Assembly: GCA_964016885.1 (NCBI GenBank)
Contig: OZ024740.1
Location: forward strand, 120,156,001-120,220,000
Reading direction: 5' to 3'
Source of the DNA: Eledone cirrhosa
Lineage: Eukaryota
DNA length: 64,000 bases
Both the position numbers and the translations under genes were made by a program. Of this stretch, positions 3,222 to 56,557 are shown piece after piece (the stretch's first letter is position 1; each line of letters opens with the position of its first letter). A model generated the notes under the pieces. It saw only the letters and a list, made by a program, of their open reading frames with translations, was not told where the DNA came from and searched no databases.

Positions 3222-3511
3222 ATAGAGAGAGATATAGAGAGATATATAGAGAGAGAAATATAGAGAGAGAGATAGAGAGCGAGATAGATAGATAGATAGA
3301 TAGATAGATATATATAGAGAGAGAGTCAGTGCTGAGATCGAGGAGACTGCTAATCATGGGAGTACTCGATGCATGGGAGATGCAGAATGGGTATAGAGAT
3401 ATGAAAAATCCCAACCGTAGCACCAAGAAGTTTTGGCCTGTATGTTCAGCAAGCCTTTTCAAGGGTGTATCTGCATCTCTCTCTATATATATGTATATAT
3501 ATATATATATA

Positions 3512-3834
3512 TATTAAGACAGGGGGGAAGAAAAAATGGCTTCACTTGTGCTTTCAACAAATTTATTTTCTTCACAAAATCCAAAAAGAATTTTTTTCCG
3601 GGTTAGAAAAAAAAATTTTTTTCTTGAAAAAAATTATTTTATAAATTAAGTTAGGTCTTAGGAGTTCTTGGTTAACGTAGGAGGTATTGTTTCGTTTTTA
3701 GAACGACCTTTCATGGAAAAAAATTCTTTTTGGATTTTGTGAAGAAAATAAATTTGTTTGAAAGCACAAGTGAAGCCATTTTTTTTTCCCCCCTGTCTTA
3801 ATATACCTAACTGTACTAAGGATTACACACATTT

Positions 3835-3840
<6 letters not shown>
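3512..3840. repeat. Fold-back element in (TA)n: ~85-bp inverted arms (3512-3597 / 3715-3803) plus a short one-sided tail
   Basis: taagacaggggggaagaaaaaatggcttcacttgtgctttcaacaaattt... is mirrored by ...aaatttgtttgaaagcacaagtgaagccattttttttcccccctgtctta; TA runs on both sides. Confidence 0.85.
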
Positions 3841-3891
<51 letters not shown>

Positions 3892-3965
3892 CATGATAAT
3901 ATTACACAACATAATGTAAGCGACTGTCCTGTTTCATAGTGGAATAGATTACTTTCATCATCTTT

Positions 3966-4400
3966 ATCATCATCACCGTTTTACGTCCATTCTTCCACGC
4001 TAGCATGGGTTAGACAGGTTGTCCTGTTGTGGGCAGTGTCTGGTCAGCTGACCTTGTCTTGCTCATACGGGAACTGATTCCAGCTTGATTTCTACAGCTG
4101 GATGCCCTTCCTAACACCAACCTCATTTACAGTGAGTGCTGGGTGCTTTTTTTTTGTGGCGCCTACACGTCCACTTTACAGTGTGAGCTGAGTGATTTTT
4201 AACCGTGGTACCTCCACAACCCCTTTGCAGTGGAATAATAGGGGCCCCAGTCCTATCATCTCATTTCTACAGCTGTGTAAACTGGAGCAATGTGAAATAA
4301 AGTGTCTTGCTCAAGGAAACAACACTTCACCTGGTCCAGAAATTGAACTCACAACCTTTCGATTGCAAGTCCAATGCTCTATCCACTAAGCCATGTGCCT
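3966..4400 (-). mobile_element. tRNA-derived CORE-like SINE with an RTE-derived 3' tail
   Basis: Minus strand: A box (tggcttagtgg), B box (gagttcaatt), CORE-like ccttgagcaagacacttta, then sequence matching the RTE 3' UTR at 26963-27230 and a (GAT)n tail. Confidence 0.8.
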
Positions 4401-33401: not shown

Positions 33402-34030
33402 TCATCATCATCATCACCGTTTTACGTCCATTCTTCCACGCTAGCATGGGTTAGACAGATTGTCCTGTTGTGGGCAATACCAGGTCGGGTGACCTTGTCT
33501 TGCTCATACAGGAACTGATTTTGGCTTGATTTCTACAGCTAGATGCCCTTCCTAACACCAACATCATTTACAGTAAGTGCTGGGTGCTTTTTTGCCGTGG
33601 CACCTACACGTCCACTTTACAGTGTGGGCTGGGTGCTTTTTTGCCGTGGCACCTCCAAGACCTCTTTGCAGTGGGAGGGGATGAGGGCATATTGTCTGTA
33701 TGCTTCAACTTGTACTCGTGGAAAGTCAGGTCTTCTGTATTACTGCATGACGCCAGAGGTCACGGTCCTGTGTCATCACCTTTGAGAGATGCAATTGGGC
33801 AAGGTCAGCTTTTATCACCTCATCCTAGGTCTTCTTGGGTGGATCTTCCCACTTCAAGGCTACCATCGACTTTTAGTGCTCTACACCTTTTTATGCAGCT
33901 GTTATCCTTCATACGCATCACATGTCCATACTAACGCATCCTCCTCTCCTGCAAACAGCATTTGATTCCTCTTATGCTCAGTCTCTCTCTCAATTTGTTT
34001 ATGCTTTGATGTTTGCATATTACTATTACA
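33402..34030 (-). mobile_element. 5'-truncated RTE LINE (C-terminus + 3' UTR)
   Basis: Colinear with 26963-27590. Confidence 0.9.
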
Positions 34031-34059
34031 CACACACATATATAAAACTACAGCTAATT

Positions 34060-34640
34060 CTGCAGCGACTTCCTCAAGAAAGGATCTGTATTTAGACTCC
34101 TTGTTTGGTACATAAACCTGGAGACCTATCTTTCAGCCTAAACTTCTAGAGACAAATGCTCCATCTGAATGGGATCCAGTCCAAAACAAATTTTATCAGA
34201 CGCTTGCTTGTGAATATCCCCACTTCCACCTGTGCAGGCATTCCTGGTACCACACCTGAATAGGAGAATTTTATCCTCCATCCAAATCTACAGTACCAGA
34301 ACCACAGAACTTTGTTGAGGAAACCCCAACTATATGTAGCCAGTAGCATCAAGTCTCCTCCACTACTTCCTGCTCCTTACCTTGTGATGTTCCAGGTTAC
34401 AATTGTCATGATGTGAACACTTCCAAACCTTCTTTATGTTCCTGGGATATGTAATCTTTGCATGTCCATCCCATGCCTCCCAGGATATATCACAGGTCCA
34501 TTGACAGTTTTTGTGATATGAAATGGAAACTGTAGTATATTTTTCAAACAGGCTCCTCTACCTATGGCTTGAACGCATCCCTTATTAACTCTTAGGAAGA
34601 ACGAAGCAGTATGGTTCTTTTTTGTACCACTCACAATATT
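34060..34640 (-). mobile_element. APE endonuclease N-terminal fragment of a second RTE family (Rex3/Expander-like)
   Basis: Piecewise translation TIVTWNIT..GKEQEVVEE..HIVGVSSTKFCGSGTVDLDGG..SYSGVVPGMPAQVEVGIFTS. Confidence 0.65.
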
Positions 34641-34724
34641 GCAGATTTTTAGAAAAATAATTTCATCACTTCTGTAAAATTGTATCTACTGTTCTTTATA
34701 CATATATATGTGTGTGTGTGTCCC

Positions 34725-34912
34725 AGATTCAAATGGGGGTAACCACAATAAGTGAGATACTCGATGCATTAGTAGAGTGTAAACATCAAATCTAAATTAG
34801 AAATGGCTTCTATGGGATTAGAACTGCTTCATTCAAAAGAAATCATCAGAAAAGCCTTGATTTCTTTTGAATGAAACACAGTTCCTGTCCTGAAGAAGGT
34901 ATTTCTATATTA
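34725..34912. repeat. Short fold-back element with a decayed hammerhead-like core; related copy at 56345-56520
   Basis: gaaatggcttctatgggattagaactgcttcattcaaaagaaatca is mirrored by tgatttcttttgaatgaaacacagttcctgtcctgaagaaggtatttc. Confidence 0.65.
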
Positions 34913-34916
34913 AATT

Positions 34917-34948
<32 letters not shown>

Positions 34949-35049
34949 AAAACCAACAAATAAATAGAAAAACATTTTTTTGGAAATTTATATGCGAAAC
35001 ATGTCTATGAACAAGACAGCTAAACTTGCTTAGATCAGAGAATCATATA

Positions 35050-35227
35050 TCGATAGTTTAATTTATGCCAAAGCTTCCAAAGGATGGGGAAGATGCAAGG
35101 CAAAATAAACTAATACAAGAAAGTTTTGCTTCCAGTTAGGAATATGGTGTGCATGAAACTTTCTGGCATTAGCTTGTTTTGCCTTGCATATTCCTCCTTT
35201 GGAGCTTTTGGCATCAAGTAATCTATG

Positions 35228-35230
<3 letters not shown>
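35050..35230. repeat. Imperfect ~65-bp inverted repeat next to (TA)n
   Basis: atgccaaagcttccaaagga..tgcaaggcaaaataaactaatacaagaaagttt versus aaactttctggcattagcttgttttgccttgca..tcctttggagcttttggcat. Confidence 0.7.
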
Positions 35231-35277
<47 letters not shown>

Positions 35278-35820
35278 TATGTAATAAACAACATAAGATA
35301 ATTATTTCATTTACCAGTGGTTTCTTGAAAGAAGATATTGTATCTGTTTTCAGTCGTGAGATTGAATAAAAGACATGGCGTTTTTATTAAATATGTATTT
35401 GAAAACAAAATTTTAGATATATGAATTTGAGGCTGAGAAAAAAACGGGCAAAAAAGAAGAGGGGAAAAAATATATATATATATATAAACAATAGATATCC
35501 AGAACGTAAACAAACACACACTAAACCACGCGCATATACTTAAAAAGTACGAAGTCGTATACTTTTTCACATAAGCGTATTATCGTCTACAGACAGGGGC
35601 ATAAATACATACACATACATATACATGAAGTAATAAATAAATAAAAACAAAAAAATATACAAAGTCGAAAACAAAATAAAGACAAAAAAGAAGACGTGTT
35701 GACAACGATAAGTATGAGTGTGTGAAGGGAGGGAGGGGGGGGGGGGATAAATATAAAAACAACTTAAAAATAAACAAATACACGAGATGTGCATATACAT
35801 AAATATATATATATATATAT

Positions 35821-36494
35821 CGTTTCTGAATTTGTTTAGCAAGATTCTTTATCTGAAAACGTGTGTTGAAACCAATATTGTTATACTTTGGGAGGGTCAT
35901 GTTGCCAATAGGAAACACACGCACCAGTTGCTTTCACTCCAATTTATTATAAATTAAATTTATAAATTTAAGAAATTTGTAAATTTCCAGTTGGTTGGTT
36001 CCACAGAAAAGATGCAATGTTTAGACAAATCACAGAGGCAATAAACATAAATTAACTCCAACCAAAATTAAATAGAAAACTTGAATGAAATAGTAACATC
36101 GCAACTTACAATTAAGGACAAAATGAAAACACACACACATAGAACAAACAACCAACCAGTAACATGTAAATGAACAAATAAATAAACAAATAAAAACACA
36201 CACAGACCCCTAGATGTAACACATGCGCAACATAAGCACACAACACACACGAAAACAAGATGGCGTAGGACAGAACAAAGGAGAGGCACAAAACAAAGAA
36301 AAGAATCCCCAGTCACTGAAGAGATCACAGAATGTGTGACGAAAGGACTTTGACAATATATGAACAACCGTCCGGTTGTGGATCCAACCAACCAGAAATT
36401 TACAAATTTCTTAAATTTATAATAAATTGGAGTGAAAACAATTAGTGCGCGTGTTTCTTATTGACAACATGACCCTCCCAAAGTATAACAATAT
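35821..36494 (+). mobile_element. Fold-back element A (Penelope pLTR/retrozyme-like) with an internal hammerhead
   Basis: Inverted arms 35875-36005 / 36377-36494, TA runs on both sides, hammerhead core in the spacer oriented toward the right arm. Confidence 0.75.
36312..36354 (+). ncRNA. Minimal type-I hammerhead ribozyme motif
   Basis: GUCA CUGAAGA G AUCACA gaaug UGUGAC GAAA G ga C UU UGAC: stem I GUCA/UGAC, intact CUGANGA and GAAA, stem II UCACA/UGUGA, 2-bp stem III, CUU cleavage triplet. Confidence 0.75.
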
Positions 36495-36596
36495 ATATAT
36501 ATAAATATACAGATACATACATACATACACACGCACACACACATATACATGCATGGATAATCATACACACGTATAAAAACACACACACATATATGC

Positions 36597-36628
<32 letters not shown>

Positions 36629-36786
36629 GGGGAGGGTCATATTTGTGTAATATTGCCAGAATTAATAACAGAACACACTCACTGTTTGGTTGGTTTTTCG
36701 CTTTTCGCTTCTGTGTCCTTTATATCGGTAATATAATTTATTCGGTCCTCAATGTTGCCATTGACTGACCAATGGTCAAATATAAT

Positions 36787-36963
36787 TGTTTCTACTTTTG
36801 GCACAAGGCCATCAATTATCTGGTTACTGGTACTTTATTTTATCGACCTCGTAAGGATGAAAGGCAAAGTCAACCTCGGCGGGATTTGAACTCAGATCGT
36901 AAAGGGACGTAACTATGCTAGAAAGCATGGTGTCTGACCCTCTACCGATACTGCCAATCCACC
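36787..36963 (-). mobile_element. SINE family 1 with a 20-bp target-site duplication
   Basis: gaccaatggtcaaatataat at 36767-36786 and 36964-36983. Confidence 0.95.
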
Positions 36964-37021
36964 GACCAATGGTCAAATATAATACAGATACAATATAGAC
37001 ACAAACACATATATATAGTTT

Positions 37022-37063
37022 ATCAAAGTTCTTTCGTTGCACATCTGCAACATCGTCAGTGGT
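37022..37063 (-). ncRNA. Minimal type-I hammerhead ribozyme motif
   Basis: Minus strand ACCA CUGACGA U GUUGCA gaug UGCAAC GAAA G aa C UU UGAU: perfect 6-bp stem II, intact core, stem I with one mismatch. Confidence 0.72.
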
Positions 37064-38069
37064 GCTATTGTTTCCTCCCGTTGCATTGTATTTTCTACGC
37101 CATCTTTATTTAGTCTGTTTACATATTTATTTATTTGTTTATTTTATTTTGTCTTCTTTGCGCATGCGTTTGCGTGTGTGTATAGTGTTTTGTTTGATGT
37201 GTGTTCGTGATTGGGTGACTGTGTATTGGTTAATGTATTCTATCTTTACTAGTGTGTGTTTATATGTGTTTGTTGTTATTGTGCTTGTGTATGTATTTAT
37301 TTATTTATTTATTTATACTTCTCTTAGGTCAGTGTTATTTGTTTAGGTGTTGTTATTCCATTCATTCTTTCTGTTTAGCCTTGGCCTTCTAAGTTCTATT
37401 TCACTGGCCTCTCTGATTTGCCTATCTACTGGGTCATTTCTATGTTTAGATATTAATCTAATTTCTATGTTGTCTATGTTACCGTCGTGTTGTTGTCATT
37501 GAGGACCGAATAAATTAGATTACCGATATAAAGGAGACAGAAGCGATAAGCGAAAACCAACCAAACAGTGAGTGTGTTCTGTTATTAATTCTGGCAATAT
37601 TACACAAATATGACACTCCCCAAGTATAACAATATTTGTTTCGACACACGATTTCATATCAAAAACCTCGCAAAACTAATATATATATATATATATATAC
37701 TAAAATATAAAATAAACATACGTACACATACACATGCGTGCAAAATTACATATACACATACACAACCACACGCATACACACATATAAATAAACATGCATA
37801 CAGCCATATTACACACACATCCACATATATACACATAAAAGCCTACAATACGGAGGATACGTATACAAATTTGTGCGCTCGCACGCACGTAAAAAGAAAT
37901 CAACACACGCATACAAAAAATCCATACGTAAATCCATACACACATAACCCATATATACAAAAGCATATATATACAGTTGCATACACACACATATATGTAA
38001 ACACATACATATAGCCATATATAAATATAATATAAACATATACAAAATCGCATACACACACATATATGT

Positions 38070-38170
38070 CATCATCATCATCATTCGTCGACTACTGAGG
38101 CTCGAGGGAGTTTGCCATAGATTTTAGACAAGGTGGGATGTCGTTTCCAGGATAGGTTTTGCACTCTCAT
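38070..38170 (-). mobile_element. Short RTE-X-like 3' fragment with a (GAT)n tail
   Basis: Encodes RVQNLSWKRHPTLSKIYGKLPR, similar to RTE-X C-terminal sequence. Confidence 0.55.
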
Positions 38171-38304
38171 AAACACATACATATAACCATATATACATAT
38201 AATATAAACATATACAAACACACACACATATATATATATACACAAACACATATATATGTATATACATACGCACATATATATATATATATATACATATATG
38301 CATA

Positions 38305-38714
38305 GTGGCTGCCAACTCGTTTTCGAGTACGGCCACTACTTTATATCCATGTAGGAGAAACCCTACCGATGCGCTGAACGAGTGTGACTTTTTAGTCCAG
38401 CCAGCGACTTGAAAACTCTGGTACAAACACTACACTTGTGACAATTATTGACACATAGTGCTGGGCCCATGGTACCATGTGACGACAAGTGCAGAGAGAT
38501 CTCCAGATATAAAGCAATGCCTGTGCCGTGAAGCTTTTATAGTGAGCAAAGGCACTGCACAAAGCCAGTCCCACTCTCTTAACCAAGATGATATTTACCA
38601 AAAAGAAGAACAAGTCAACATCATTGAATACCATCAGAGTTGCAGGTGTTATATCAGAGTTTTCCTTCTCCTAGAATTCTGCCTTGACAAAGGCTAAGGG
38701 GTCATCTCTCCCGG
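38305..38714 (-). mobile_element. Non-coding interspersed repeat, truncated copy of 44932-45527
   Basis: Near-identical to 44932-45343 over ~410 bp. Confidence 0.85.
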
Positions 38715-38715
38715 A

Positions 38716-38856
38716 GATACATATACATACATATATATATATACATACACATATATATACATATATACATACAGATATATATATACATACATATATATAT
38801 ATACATATATACATACATATATATATATATATAGATACATATATAGATATACATAT

Positions 38857-38887
<31 letters not shown>

Positions 38888-39480
38888 CATATATACATAT
38901 AAAAGGAGACGATCGACTTTCGTCAAATCAGACCGAGGGAACAATGTTTCCGTTGGTCTTTCCAATTGCTAATACTATCTATCGGTCGCAACTCCATACA
39001 TATATATATATGTATGTATATATATACATATATACATACATATATATATATATACATATATACATACATATATATATATACATATATACATACATATATA
39101 TATATATACATACATATATATATATACATATATACATACATATATATATATATACATATATACATACATATATATATATATACATATATACATACATATA
39201 TACATACATATATATATATACATATATACATACATATATATATACATATATATATATACATATATACATACATATATATATATACATATATACATACATA
39301 TATATATACATATATACATACATATATATATATACATACATATATATATAAATACATATATACATACATATATATATAAATACATATATACATACATATA
39401 TATATACATTTATACATACATATATACATATATACATACATAAATATATATATATATATATACATACACGCACACATACA
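38716..39480. repeat. Long compound (TA)/(TACA) microsatellite with a ~95-bp island at 38902-38998
   Basis: Direct observation; source of many spurious Y/I/C/M-rich ORFs. Confidence 0.95.
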
Positions 39481-42533: not shown

Positions 42534-43759
42534 TATATATATATATATATGAGTGTGTGTGTGTGTTTTGTGTATGTAAATAGGACACCTATATACTCAG
42601 AAAAAAGGTTGATGTGTTCACTATTGTATTGCCTTAAACATAACTTATCTTCTGATCAGTACAAATTGGTTAGACTCCATGGAGTAGTACAATGAGCCTA
42701 CAATGAAATTGATGAGAAGTTTTCTCTTGGTTTGTGAAGTAGATTGATTGATTTTCTTCATGTAAGTAAATGAAATTAAGTTGCAAATCATTGATTTTTT
42801 TCTATATCGTTTTATTTTCTAATTTTATTTCTGCGATTAAAAAAAAATGTTTTGTAAGATTTAAATTTACTAATTTAATAAATTTGGATACTTTTGATTA
42901 CCTTTCCTTTTTTCCTCCTTGTATTAATTCCGTTTGACAATAAGTGAACATGGAGGGTTGAGATGACATAATTTCTGACAACCAGCTGAAGGTCATAAGT
43001 TTCTGTCTTTACTATATTGGAAAAGGTCATCGAGGTAAACGTTGGTAGCAATATTTGTGTGTTGGATTGGAGTAGTTGTTAGTGTGTCAGACAAATGCTT
43101 AACAGTATTTTTTCGGACTCTTTACATTCTGACTTCAAATCCCACCAAAGGATAAACATGGTTTTCAGATATTTATTGTAATAAACTGCTGATACATTTG
43201 TCTCTTAAACATCAATTATAATTAGCAATTTCATTAGCCCATTTCTAGCAAAAGCCCATTTCTAGCAAAAGCTCAGCCCATGAGTTTCAAACCATTTTGA
43301 AAACAATCAGGGTATTTATTAATGTAACTAATTATTCTATTTATCTGAATATAACTTTATAAAAGTTCTTTCAGAAATTATGACAGAAGAACATAGGTAA
43401 ATGTAAACACTTTAAAACAAACAATTTTATATTACAGACTAGGGGTGCTTTCAGGTGGTTTGTATCAAAAGTGTTAATCTTACACCTGTAAAATATTCAG
43501 AAGCAACTGAATATAAATTTCCCTTCAATCTTTAGCACTTGTCTAACCTTTAAAATATTCAAATTGGTATTCCAGTCTGATGTATAATATCTCCACTCAG
43601 CAGGTTTTCTTGGGAATTGGGATATGGTTATTGTATATAATGTTTTTAGTATAATCTTAACTTTACTTTGCAAATGAGGTGCGAAAGTAACTAAATTGTT
43701 TAGTTTTTTCCTTTCTTCCATGTCCCTGGTGGTACTTTAAGTAAGAGCAGATTAAAAGT

Positions 43760-44375
43760 GTACAGAAATAAATAATTGTTTCTACTCTTGGCACAAGGCC
43801 AGCAATTACCCATTTCATTACTGGTACTGGTACTTACCATGTAAGGATGAAAGGCAAAGTTAACCTCGGCAGGGTTTGAACTCAGAAAGGCAAGGGCCGT
43901 AACTCTATGCGTCAAAGCATGACGTCCGACCCTCTACCGATACTGCCAAATCACCGCCCTTGTACAGAAATAAATAATTATATCTACTTTTGGCACAAGG
44001 CCAGTAATTACCCAGTGCATTACTGGTACTTTATTTTATCGACCCCGTAAGGATGAAAGGCAAAGTCAACCTCGGCGGGATTTGAACTCAGATTGTAAAG
44101 GGACGTAACTATGCTGGAAAGCATGTCCGACCCTCTACTGATACTGCCAATCCACTGTACAGAAATAAATAATTGTTTCTACTTTAGGCACAAGGCCAGC
44201 AATTGCCCAGTGCATTACTGGTACTTTATTTTATTGACCCCGTAGGATGAAAGGCAAAGTCAACCTCGGCGGGATTTGAACTCAGATCGTAAAGGGACGT
44301 AACTATGCTGGAAAGCATGGCGTCTGACCCTCTACTGATACTGCCAATCCACCGCCCTTCAGAAATAAATAATGA
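43760..44375 (-). mobile_element. Array of three SINE family 1 copies separated by the same target sequence
   Basis: (tgta)cagaaataaataat occurs at ~43760, 43961, 44156 and 44360, bracketing three ~185-bp SINEs. Confidence 0.9.
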
Positions 44376-46866: not shown

Positions 46867-48762
46867 TTATTATTATTATTATAATGATATATATAAAAAT
46901 AAATAAATGAAGAAAATTCTACTGAGACAACTGTCAAAGATAATCATAAAATTCTTTTGTTCCATAGGTTTGTGGCAATGGTTTAAAATAATAGTCATTC
47001 AAATCTCAATAAATATAACAACAACATTTTTAAATTAAAAATGAAGAAAAATAAAAACGCTAGACTTCATTAAAATATGACTAATTCCATAAATTTTATG
47101 TTCATGTAATTCTTTTTTTTTAAATTATATCTTGCCATTTTTGTTTTTTATATTTTCCTGAATGGAATTTTAATTTTAACTCAATTGTTTCTTTATTTTA
47201 AATGTTATATTTTGTTTTTTAACCTCTGAAGAAAATGTTTGTGAATGATTAAGACTTCACTAAATGGAGAATCATGAGGAAATTGCATGAAACACTTTGT
47301 TACTATTATTATTATTACTGTTGTTTTTGTTATTATTATTATGGCTATTATTATTTGTGCCAAGCTACACTGCTATTGCCACTGCTTTCTCTAATTTTAT
47401 CCTTCTATCAGTGTTGACATGAAGGTTTTGAAAAAATTTCTAATCATGGGTTTCTGTTATGAAATTATATTACGAAATAGTTATGCTTGCACACTCTTGC
47501 TTATTCCCTTTCTCTTTGGCGTTTTCTTCTCTCATCCTTTATTTGAAAGTTTTTTATGTGTTATCTGAGAATATATGTGCATATTGCAGTGTGAATGTGT
47601 ATCTGGGCTAAGGTGTTAGTGTGTTCATGTGTGTGGGGTATTTGTGTCTCAGTATTTGTGTGCGAGCTGTTTTGGATATGTATTCCTATGCATATCGGTA
47701 GGTGCATGTTTGTGCCTCTTTATTGTCATATGTTATTTAATTTTGTAATTTATTTAAACTGATATGTCTATAGTCCTGGTAATGCAGCATCTTCCACAAT
47801 AGTTGTTTGAGCTGTCTTGTTTTTATATTTTCAAAACAAAGTTATGTCCTGTTAACTCATTAAATTAGACTGTTCTGTATAATACACATTTTGTGATGGT
47901 CAAGAGATTTGCTTTTCAACCATGAGGTTTCTGATTCAACCCCACTGAGTCACATATTTATCAAAGCCTTGAGATGACCTAGGTATTGTGAATAAAATTT
48001 GAGGGGCACAAACTGTAATTCAAATGTCTGGACCTTGTCATACTGTTTCAAGCAAATTCTGCTTCAAAATCACATCATGGGCACACGTGTCTTTGAAATA
48101 TCTATGACTTACATATTAATTCTTGAATCAAACAGTCAGTTGATTACATGATATTACATTATATTACTTTAAATTTTTGAAACAATAATAACTAGAAATA
48201 AATTATTATAGTAACTAGAGTTAAACTACGAAATACGTTTTCAATGCTCTTCATGTAAAATTATGAGAAAAGGTTTTAAACTGTGGTGTATCATTAAAAA
48301 AGGGGCAACGTGAGGCAGACTGGTATTAAAAGGTTTCAAAAAGATCATACAGTATTTGTTCGCTTATACATGTATAAAGTAAGTTCAAATGTGTGTAAAT
48401 CTTTTTTGTGAAGACTAAAATATTTAATATTTTATGTAAAAATTTCAGGATATCTGGAATTTTATAATATTGAGCTTGAAGTCTTATGAATTTTTAACCA
48501 GATTTTGAATCATTTTGAAAGTCAGAAAAGATGTCTACAAAAGTTTGTACTGTTGAGCCATAAAAATAACTGTGTAAATCAATATAATATTGCAACAGCT
48601 GGAAGAATTTCCAAACTACTTGGAATATATAATGAAATGTTGCTTTTAAGAATTTATTATGCAAAATGTACTGTAAAATTATGAAAGAATATATAAAAAT
48701 ACATATCAAATTCAAATAATTTATATCAGTTCTTGAAGGCCAAATGAAATCAATTTTCTTCT

Positions 48763-55826: not shown

Positions 55827-55992
55827 TTATATATATATATATATATATATATTAAAGAGTTAAACAAGATTCAATGAGTACATCAAAGAATGAGTTTTAC
55901 AGTAGATTGAAAGCACTCTACAGTGGATATTTTCCAGAGTTATTAATATTAATTCAAATATTAACAAAATAGATATTCTTGTGATCAATTAA

Positions 55993-56057
55993 ATGTTATT
56001 ATACATATTTCAGAGGTACTGAATCAAGTTTAACAGTACGTCCTCATCAGATAAAAT
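55993..56057 (-). ncRNA. Minimal hammerhead ribozyme motif (mirror copy)
   Basis: Reverse complement of 56215-56279 with one stem I mismatch. Confidence 0.65.
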
Positions 56058-56214
56058 AAAATGATACATGACATACCCTGACATGTTAGATGGTTAAGAT
56101 TTAATCAAGGTAGTGATTAAGTTATGAGTTTATATTAAGTTTTCTCATAAGTTAATCACTACCTTGATTAAATCTTAACTATCTAACATGTCAGGGTATG
56201 TCATGTATCATTTT

Positions 56215-56279
56215 ATTTTATCTGATGAGGACGTACTGTTAAACTTTATTCAGTACCTCTGAAATATGTATAATAAAAT
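56215..56279 (+). ncRNA. Minimal type-I hammerhead ribozyme motif
   Basis: AUUUUAU CUGAUGA GGACGUACUG..CAGUACCUCU GAAA UA ug UA UA AUAAAAU: 7-bp stem I, long stem II with one C-C mismatch, near-palindromic stem III, AUA cleavage triplet. Confidence 0.7.
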
Positions 56280-56557
56280 TTAATTGATCACAAGAATATC
56301 TATTTTGTTAATATTTGAATTAATATACATATATATATATAGGTGGATTCCTGATGTATATCGGGAGATTACCACAGATACAAAAAGGTACTCAGTATAT
56401 TAGTAGAATATCAGCATATATATTTTATTATAGAAATAGCTTCTACAAGAAAAGAACTATTTCATATATAAGGTGATTCCTGATGAATGAAAAAGTTGTA
56501 GTCCCATAGAAGTCATTTCATGATGATAGTAATAATAATTTATATATATATATATAT

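What the first reader, a model, noticed from the sequence alone, without database searches (positions are those of the whole stretch)
35821..37680. Hidden coding constraint at the termini: conserved ATG-initiated peptide MTLPKYNNI.F.TRF.IKNLAK
Seen: element A minus strand from 35900 reads ATG ACC CTC CCA AAG TAT AAC AAT ATT GGT TTC AAC ACA CGT TTT CAG ATA AAG AAT CTT GCT AAA CAA. Element B plus strand from 37610 reads ATG ACA CTC CCC AAG TAT AAC AAT ATT TGT TTC GAC ACA CGA TTT CAT ATC AAA AAC CTC GCA AAA CTA. Over these 23 codons I count 8 synonymous and 4 non-synonymous differences. Similarity begins at the ATG and the frame is cut off by the TA tract. Inference: this is the N-terminus of the parent element's protein carried at the 3' end of the repeat, so the reading frame would be completed only in a tandem or circular (rolling-circle-like) template.
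Basis: partly seen in the sequence, partly recalled or inferred. Interest (0 to 1): 0.7.

Follow-up and report, generated by a model that had tools for sequence, protein, structure and literature searches.

The report
Penelope retrotransposon tails carrying ORF start
The short peptide is the real start of the 1,200-amino-acid copying enzyme of two related Penelope-like jumping genes, left at the ends of their cut-short, mirror-image insertions; this layout is already known, and its strict one-short-one-long-end pattern likely records where the enzyme starts copying its own RNA.

Summary
In detail: 8 synonymous and 4 non-synonymous differences over 23 codons, dN/dS 0.07, P=5.5e-4. The peptide is the N-terminus of a 1,209-aa reverse transcriptase + GIY-YIG-type ORF found intact in 4.15-kb head-to-tail units elsewhere in this genome. 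The RT folds like telomerase RT. A and B are two families (48% and 65% identical). The constraint is inherited from the parents; private changes in the stumps look neutral. No circle is needed. A pLTR plus tail holding the first 12-22 codons is in print (PMC3846280), and so is RT initiation inside the ORF (PMC11167929). Added here: ends fall at +26 or +69-86 nt after the ATG, at AT-type microhomologies with (TA)n. Of 54 mirror-image insertions, 53 have one end of each kind, and either arm may be the longer. This favours priming from both cut strands over fold-back. The RT lineage has a DKS motif and a ~70-aa insert at the telomerase-IFD position; I could not place it in a named clade. The scan has noted such stumps before on other DNA.

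The parts
35815..35900 (-). Element A, long end: first ~28 codons of the family A ORF (ATG to +86), abutting (TA)n
   Evidence: 96.5% to positions 1-86 of the family A copy in L098; end class 86 (L133)
35901..36000 (-). Element A, left arm: last ~100 nt of the pLTR, inverted relative to the right arm
   Evidence: self-match 36005-35875 to 36377-36494; match to the A unit
36002..36468 (+). Element A, right arm: remnant of the ORF end, 3' UTR and pLTR, 5'-truncated
   Evidence: matches to A unit positions 3713-4336 at about 79%
36257..36265 (+). AAGATGGCG motif, shared with family B; many arms begin near it (candidate pLTR 5' border or promoter, inferred)
36311..36355 (+). Minimal type I hammerhead-like motif of family A (AGTCA-CTGAAGA-stem II-GAAA-GGAC-TT-TGAC); cleavage untested
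   Evidence: core CTGAAGA and TGAC in 23 of 23 A motifs found
36469..36494 (+). Element A, short end: ATG to +26 (ends AATAT), abutting (TA)n
   Evidence: modal end in 15 of 28 A heads
36629..36640 (-). Element B, short end: ATG ACC CTC CCC then (TA)n
   Evidence: scored as 19 by the aligner because the AT run also fits
36641..37497 (-). Element B, left arm: endonuclease C-terminus, 3' UTR and pLTR, 5'-truncated; interrupted by a later insertion
   Evidence: matches to B unit positions 3443-4010 and 3998-4164
36782..36963 (.). Later insertion of a common ~180-bp SINE-like repeat into B, flanked by a 20-bp duplication (36767-36786 and 36964-36983); not part of the Penelope element
   Evidence: flanks; 14 other matches in the window
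37020..37064 (-). Hammerhead-like core of family B (CTGACGA-stem II-GAAA-GAAC-TT); helix I only about 2 bp; cleavage untested
   Evidence: CTGACGA in 17 of 21 B motifs found
37376..37495 (-). Residues 1149-1188 of the parent protein (end of the endonuclease domain)
   Evidence: tblastn 87.5% over 40 aa, E 2e-16
37497..37609 (+). Element B, right arm: last 113 nt of the pLTR, inverted relative to the left arm
   Evidence: self-match 37497-37628 to 36754-36622, 94.7%
37610..37680 (+). Element B, long end: first 23 codons of the family B ORF (ATG to +71), abutting (TA)n
   Evidence: 94% to positions 1-71 of the L051 ORF; end class 71

Best explanation
The peptide is the N-terminus of the single RT-endonuclease ORF of two related Penelope-like retrotransposon families, and the window holds one 5'-truncated, head-to-head insertion of each; their ends carry the ORF start likely because the enzyme begins reverse transcription inside that start, at two fixed sites, once from each cut strand of a (TA)n target. 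Shown: the parent ORFs; the tandem pLTR-ORF-pLTR units; ends at +26 or +69-86; one end of each kind per insertion; either arm may be the longer. Inferred: a transcript from a tandem unit runs through the ORF and the next pLTR into the next ORF start. The protein binds there and nicks both strands of (TA)n. One 3' end pairs with AAUAU at +22-26; the other pairs with AUAU at +83-86 (A) or CUA/CUAU at +67-84 (B). The two cDNAs run upstream, often stop near the pLTR 5' border, and are joined head to head. The stumps cannot make the protein. Their codon bias is a fossil of selection on the parents.
For: Parent ORF: a 1,209-aa frame starts at the same ATG in two successive units of L051/L052, and the third unit ends at the long-end site (CGCCGCTA, then TA repeats). 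In one search, 31 of 56 listed matches lie in open frames of 1,200 codons or more. A copies cover residues 1-246 and 414-1188. The model of residues 421-1209 (pLDDT 92) has telomerase RTs as top matches (Foldseek E 1e-9; Z 14.7, rmsd 4.2, 384 aligned). The N-terminus aligns with the starts of relatives at 38-41% identity (P0018, P0023, P0012). End positions from searches that used only DNA upstream of the ATG: B 15 of 29 at 26 nt or less, 12 at 56-80, 2 run on; A 18 of 28 at 26 or less, 9 at 78-86, 1 at 39. Pairing: 53 of 54 inverted pairs are short+long (55 found, 1 dropped for no coverage). In the upstream-only sets the count is 25 of 26, P 4e-7; one of these is the window's own element A. 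The short-ended arm is the longer one in 27 of 47 pairs, in 22 by more than 30 nt; a fold-back copy of a long-ended cDNA cannot give this. Contigs of four public runs from three studies show (AT)n loose ends at +26, +64, +71 and +84. In vitro, the anole Poseidon protein cuts and extends both strands and starts at two sites inside the ORF (PMC11167929, parts 1-2 of 4 read).
Against: Priming itself was not observed; everything comes from genomic end points. In PMC11167929 the start site is not homologous to the cut DNA and lies in a stem-loop; here the ends fit AT microhomology, and the head region shows no unusual folding energy (z from +0.6 to -1.7, mononucleotide shuffles). In 16 of 47 pairs the two arms begin within 30 nt of each other (permutation P 0.001); this suits fold-back, though a shared pLTR border also explains it. 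Synonymous sites in the head are not significantly more conserved than in the rest of the ORF (P about 0.2), so an RNA-level signal there is not shown. Pairs come from high-similarity hits within ±1.5 kb plus 22 longer stretches, not from the whole genome. No intact family A ORF was found among the 10 long stretches examined (longest frame 864 aa).
Confidence: 0.8

Rival explanations
1. Same element, but the mirror arm arises by self-priming or fold-back (one priming event, then hairpin copying), as proposed for rotifer Penelopes.
For: 16 of 47 pairs have arms starting within 30 nt of each other (P 0.001), and four junctions overlap by 26-41 nt. PMC3846280 argues for self-priming from palindromic junctions (parts 1-4 of 5 read).
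Against: In 22 of 47 pairs the short-ended arm is more than 30 nt longer, up to 1,697 against 39 nt. A copy of a long-ended cDNA cannot be longer upstream than its template, and a copy of a short-ended cDNA cannot hold +27 to +86. Most junctions have overlaps or gaps under 15 nt.
Confidence: 0.12
2. One reading: the stumps belong to a circular or rolling-circle RNA system in which circularisation completes the reading frame, with the hammerheads cutting monomers.
For: Hammerhead-like cores are kept in both families; tandem units exist; circular RNAs are described for retrozymes (bioRxiv 10.64898/2026.07.22.740005, part 1 of 5 read).
Against: Linear partial tandems already hold the whole frame. 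The stumps lack most of the ORF, so circularising them gives no protein. Element ends lie 170-300 nt downstream of the hammerhead, not at it. Hammerhead mutants did not affect insertion in vitro (PMC11167929).
Confidence: 0.05
3. The stumps' short ORFs are themselves under selection, for example as a host-used micropeptide.
For: dN/dS 0.07 between the two window copies.
Against: Single-copy changes are 16:4 (A, 21 heads) and 15:5 (B, 18 heads) non-synonymous to synonymous, stop codons included, while changes shared by several copies are mostly synonymous (5 of 7). The frames run into (TA)n.
Confidence: 0.02

Closest known systems
Insertion unit of endonuclease-positive Penelope-like elements: pLTR, adjacent inverted 5'-truncated copy, one-sided tail (Pen2a_Av, PMC3846280; Fig. 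2 legend of PMC8557442)
   Same: pLTR ends inside the ORF start (12 codons, 22 with the tail, in Pen2a_Av; about 9 and 23-28 here); head-to-head inverted arms; tail at one end; partial tandems; Asn-rich stretch in the ORF
   Different: Tail of 43-60 nt instead of 30-40; two alternative long ends in family B; (TA)n target with no readable target duplication; Asn-rich stretch lies before the RT (about residues 247-410), not between RT and EN or RT and thumb
Poseidon of Anolis carolinensis (PAc, PMC11167929)
   Same: Element ends inside the ORF; two start sites bound the tail; both strands cut and extended; AT-rich target; hammerhead at the pLTR
   Different: PAc starts about 111-118 nt into the ORF at a site not homologous to the target; here the ends are at +26 and +69-86 at AT-type microhomologies. 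The PAc hammerhead overlaps the start codon; here it lies 150-230 nt upstream. This protein has the linker zinc finger that Penelope/Poseidon lack
Nematis and Neptune clades (C-terminal EN with CX2-5CxxC linker; PMC8557442 text and supplementary Figs S2, S7 as text rows)
   Same: C-terminal EN, linker CxxxxCxxC, Cys pair between the two halves of the GIY-YIG-like motif, later His residues. The short spacing after CxxC (7 residues to the next Cys) looks like the three Nematis rows seen, not the two Neptune rows (by eye)
   Different: DKS for DKG, GxxIG for GxAMG, and 129-141 residues between RT motifs A and B' in 82 of 86 aligned proteins against 61-71 in the other four; the paper says canonical C-terminal EN+ PLEs have no IFD

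Membership tests
Endonuclease-positive Penelope-like elements (C-terminal EN) | Single ORF with a telomerase-related RT | tested here: met
   1,209-aa ORF; Pfam RVT_1 E 1e-5, below its curated cut-off; predicted fold's best matches are TERTs
Endonuclease-positive Penelope-like elements (C-terminal EN) | C-terminal GIY-YIG endonuclease with CCHH motif | tested here: met
   By motif and alignment: VVY-x3-C-x4-C-x7-YIGET with later R, H, E, N; the homologue P0103 carries Pfam GIY-YIG. No direct Pfam hit on this protein's EN, and the fold search did not cover this domain
Endonuclease-positive Penelope-like elements (C-terminal EN) | Partial-tandem pLTRs, inverted 5'-truncated copy, one-sided tail | tested here: met
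Endonuclease-positive Penelope-like elements (C-terminal EN) | Hammerhead motif in the pLTR | tested here: met
   Core and stem II in both families, with compensatory stem II changes seen by eye. Rfam gave no hammerhead hit. Helix I is weak in B. Cleavage untested
Penelope/Poseidon clade | No zinc-finger linker between RT and EN | tested here: not met
   CTNRKCIIC linker present
Naiad/Chlamys clade | Endonuclease N-terminal to RT | tested here: not met
   EN is C-terminal
Hydra clade | CCHH absent, DKT, element under 3 kb | tested here: not met
   Cys pair present, DKS, unit 4.1-4.3 kb
Nematis or Neptune clade | CX2-5CxxC linker | tested here: met
   spacing nearer Nematis by eye
Nematis or Neptune clade | DKG motif and no insertion between RT motifs A and B' | tested here: not met
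   DKS in 73 of 86 and a ~70-aa longer A-B' interval in 82 of 86 aligned proteins
Nematis or Neptune clade | Placement inside the clade in an RT tree with named references | not testable with these tools
   No named reference proteins were at hand; the tree of unnamed homologues did not finish

The most novel reading that the evidence does not exclude
These families belong to an unnamed, widespread clade of Penelope-like elements that joins a C-terminal endonuclease to an RT with a telomerase-like ~70-aa insertion in the fingers. They insert by obligatory two-site twin priming: each cut strand of (TA)n pairs with its own AU-rich site in the first 90 nt of the ORF, so that nearly every insertion has one short and one long end.
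Probability: 0.3. Interest if true: 0.55.

Novelty: new member of a known kind. Interest (0 to 1): 0.25.

Why it matters
The feature itself is textbook for Penelope-like elements. The value is secondary. How these elements make head-to-head insertions with a one-sided tail is still open (self-priming in PMC3846280, two internal start sites in PMC11167929). A very abundant family with many intact ORFs, two sharp end points and a 53-of-54 pairing rule gives exact predictions for an in vitro test. The RT lineage with an insert at the telomerase IFD position may also matter for the link between these elements and telomerase.

Tried and rejected
Rfam scan of 34000-39000: only AT-repeat noise, no hammerhead family. 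Pfam on the whole ORF: no hit; on pieces only a weak RVT_1. PDB by sequence: nothing for the protein, two weak bacterial RT hits for the profile. The single-sequence fold was useless (pLDDT 34) and was replaced by the alignment-based model. The fold search did not reach the endonuclease part, so it says nothing about it. My first label 'Neptune' was recalled from memory and dropped after seeing the linker spacing. An extra RNA-level constraint on the first 9 or 27 codons was not significant. A conserved hairpin in the tail was not supported by folding energy. A fixed 'main arm long, inverted arm short' rule was rejected (27 of 47). Clustering of arm starts at AAAATGGCG is only suggestive: 8 of 32 B ends lie within 12 nt; 6 of 62 A ends lie within 12 nt of the centre I set, with a visible cluster at -235 to -248; no formal test. 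Several long 'open frames' are only (TA)n read-through (L058, L060, L094, L097). No RNA holder was listed. The tree did not finish. The protein atlas was not available. Arkhipova 2006 was not held. Literature: seven searches found no paper on these families or on a counted short/long pairing rule. Text searches of the PMC8557442 supplement found no MTLPKYNN, LPPKF, AIGV, GPIG or RPVC, but long sequence runs there are cut. Repbase, Dfam and most subscription journals were not searched, so absence from print is not shown.

Full report
1. Observation. Over 23 codons there are 12 differences, 8 synonymous and 4 non-synonymous. dN/dS is 0.067, and the chance of so many synonymous changes without selection is 5.5e-4. 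The window lies in a 3.0-Gb animal genome. The best named protein relative is from Octopus vulgaris at 68%, so the host is probably an octopod (inference).

2. What follows the peptide elsewhere. A search of the genome with each peptide gave 150 scored matches at 100% identity, from 37,661 and 38,520 first-look candidates; these are not copy numbers. Four of the 150 B matches lay in frames over 1,100 codons. I fetched 12 stretches around B matches and 10 around A matches. L051/L052 hold three heads 4,145 and 4,144 nt apart. The first two open 1,209-aa ORFs; the third ends at the long-end site in (TA)n. A later search listed 56 matches, 31 of them in open frames of 1,200 codons or more. Family A copies match the B protein at 48% over residues 1-246 and about 65% over 414-1188. 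None of the 10 stretches held an unbroken A ORF; the longest frame was 864 aa.

3. What the protein is. [quoted passage not shown] Pfam gives only a weak RVT_1 hit. A model built on an alignment of 87 sequences (the query plus 86 of the 103 hits) has pLDDT 92, and its best structural matches are telomerase RTs, as expected for Penelope-like elements (PMC8557442, introduction read). The first residues align with the starts of relatives about 40% identical, so the ATG is the natural start.

4. Anatomy in the window. There are two separate insertions, A (35815-36494) and B (36629-37680). Each is a head-to-head pair of 5'-truncated arms, and each arm ends in the ORF start followed by (TA)n. B's left arm keeps residues 1149-1188 of the endonuclease and was later hit by a common 180-bp repeat with a 20-bp duplication. 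Both families have a minimal hammerhead-like core 150-230 nt upstream of the ATG, like the minimal hammerheads of PMC4209133 (passages read). Cleavage is untested, and Rfam does not detect it.

5. Where the selection acted. Between parent copies of A and B, dN/dS is 0.14 over 773 RT-EN codons; synonymous sites are saturated in the N-terminal domain. Among stump heads from loci found with upstream DNA only, single-copy changes are 16 non-synonymous to 4 synonymous (A, 21 heads) and 15 to 5 (B, 18 heads), near the neutral 4:1; changes shared by several copies are synonymous in 5 of 7 cases. The signal is therefore inherited from active parents. The head is not significantly more conserved at synonymous sites than the rest of the ORF (6 of 8 and 13 of 20 identical codons against 312 of 576; P about 0.2).

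6. Two end points and a pairing rule. With queries that stop at the ATG, ends are bimodal. B: 15 of 29 at 26 nt or less, 12 at 56-80, 2 run on. A: 18 of 28 at 26 or less, 9 at 78-86, 1 at 39; one locus gave no head (ungapped scoring shortens ends in copies with indels). The modal ends sit on AATAT (+26, both families; +86 in A) and on CTA/CTAT (+69-71, +84 in B), each continuing into the (TA)n target. Over all loci then held, 55 divergent head pairs were found and 54 kept (one had no element sequence between the heads). Of these, 53 are short+long and one short+short. Twenty-eight came from loci picked by a long end, and in all 28 the partner was short. The other 26 were picked without regard to ends, and 25 are discordant (P 4e-7); one of them is the window's element A. 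Contigs from four public runs of three studies show (AT)n loose ends at +26, +64, +71 and +84. Summed depth in the largest run falls about 70-fold from the head to the ORF body; this is no copy number, but it fits most copies being stumps.

7. Mechanism. For arm lengths I used 47 of the 54 pairs, leaving out the short+short pair, one tandem, four with very short intervals and one diverged pair. The short-ended arm is the longer in 27, in 22 by more than 30 nt. A fold-back copy of a long-ended cDNA cannot reach further upstream than its template, and a copy of a short-ended cDNA cannot hold +27 to +86. The two arms are therefore best read as two cDNAs, each primed from one cut strand at its own site (inference). 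This fits PMC11167929 (parts 1-2 of 4 read), where the protein cuts and extends both strands and starts at two sites inside the ORF. It differs in that the start sites here match the target by 3-5 nt. Against it: 16 of 47 pairs have arms starting within 30 nt of each other (P 0.001), which suits self-priming (PMC3846280). A shared pLTR border just upstream of AAAATGGCG (-229 in A, -271 in B) may explain this. That motif resembles a YY1/initiator element (recalled, from no call).

8. Relation to what is known. [quoted passage not shown] PMC8557442 (introduction, passages and supplement look-ups) describes partial tandems, inverted 5'-truncated copies, one-sided tails and (TA)n targets. The clade is open. 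The protein is not Penelope/Poseidon, Naiad or Hydra by motif. The linker looks like Nematis (by eye). But 82 of 86 aligned proteins have 129-141 residues between motifs A and B', against 61-71 in the other four, and 73 have DKS; the paper says canonical C-terminal-EN elements lack that insertion. Seven paper searches and supplement look-ups found no description of these families; repeat databases could not be searched. Earlier notes of this scan describe similar stumps and a two-site reading for other families; they are unchecked AI notes and are not counted as support.

9. Verdict. A real feature, rightly read as an ORF start, and ordinary for Penelope-like elements. Identity about 97% sure; twin priming at two sites about 75-80%. 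Interest 0.25, for the pairing rule and the unplaced RT lineage.

Noticed in passing
L051:4282-7911 (P0003) and proteins P0004-P0102: RT lineage with DKS, GxxIG and a ~70-aa insertion between motifs A and B' (telomerase IFD position) together with a C-terminal endonuclease; 82 of 86 aligned proteins; mostly unnamed records
   Followed up: partly
window 55830-56340: Another head-to-head insertion with a hammerhead-like core on each strand (CTGATGAG...GAAA at 56050 - and 56222 +), between TA runs; unrelated in sequence to A and B
   Followed up: no
window 35045-35234: Imperfect inverted repeat (73%) next to a (TA)21 run; may be a further old stump
   Followed up: no
window 36782-36963 and 14 other places: Abundant ~180-bp SINE-like repeat; the copy in element B has a 20-bp target duplication; three tandem copies at 43759-44373
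   Followed up: partly
L059:2400-3600: Tandem array of four tiny inverted B units about 290 nt apart, each with one long and one short head
   Followed up: no
P0100: An annotated Octopus vulgaris 'dynein regulatory complex subunit 6-like' isoform begins with about 150 residues of this RT family: a gene-model chimera or exonisation
   Followed up: no
P0003 residues ~247-410; L093 family A copy: Long Asn-rich stretch between the N-terminal domain and the RT in both families, with no alignable similarity between them
   Followed up: no
window 47299-47355: Short match to the Asn-rich part of the family B ORF, probably low-complexity chance
   Followed up: no
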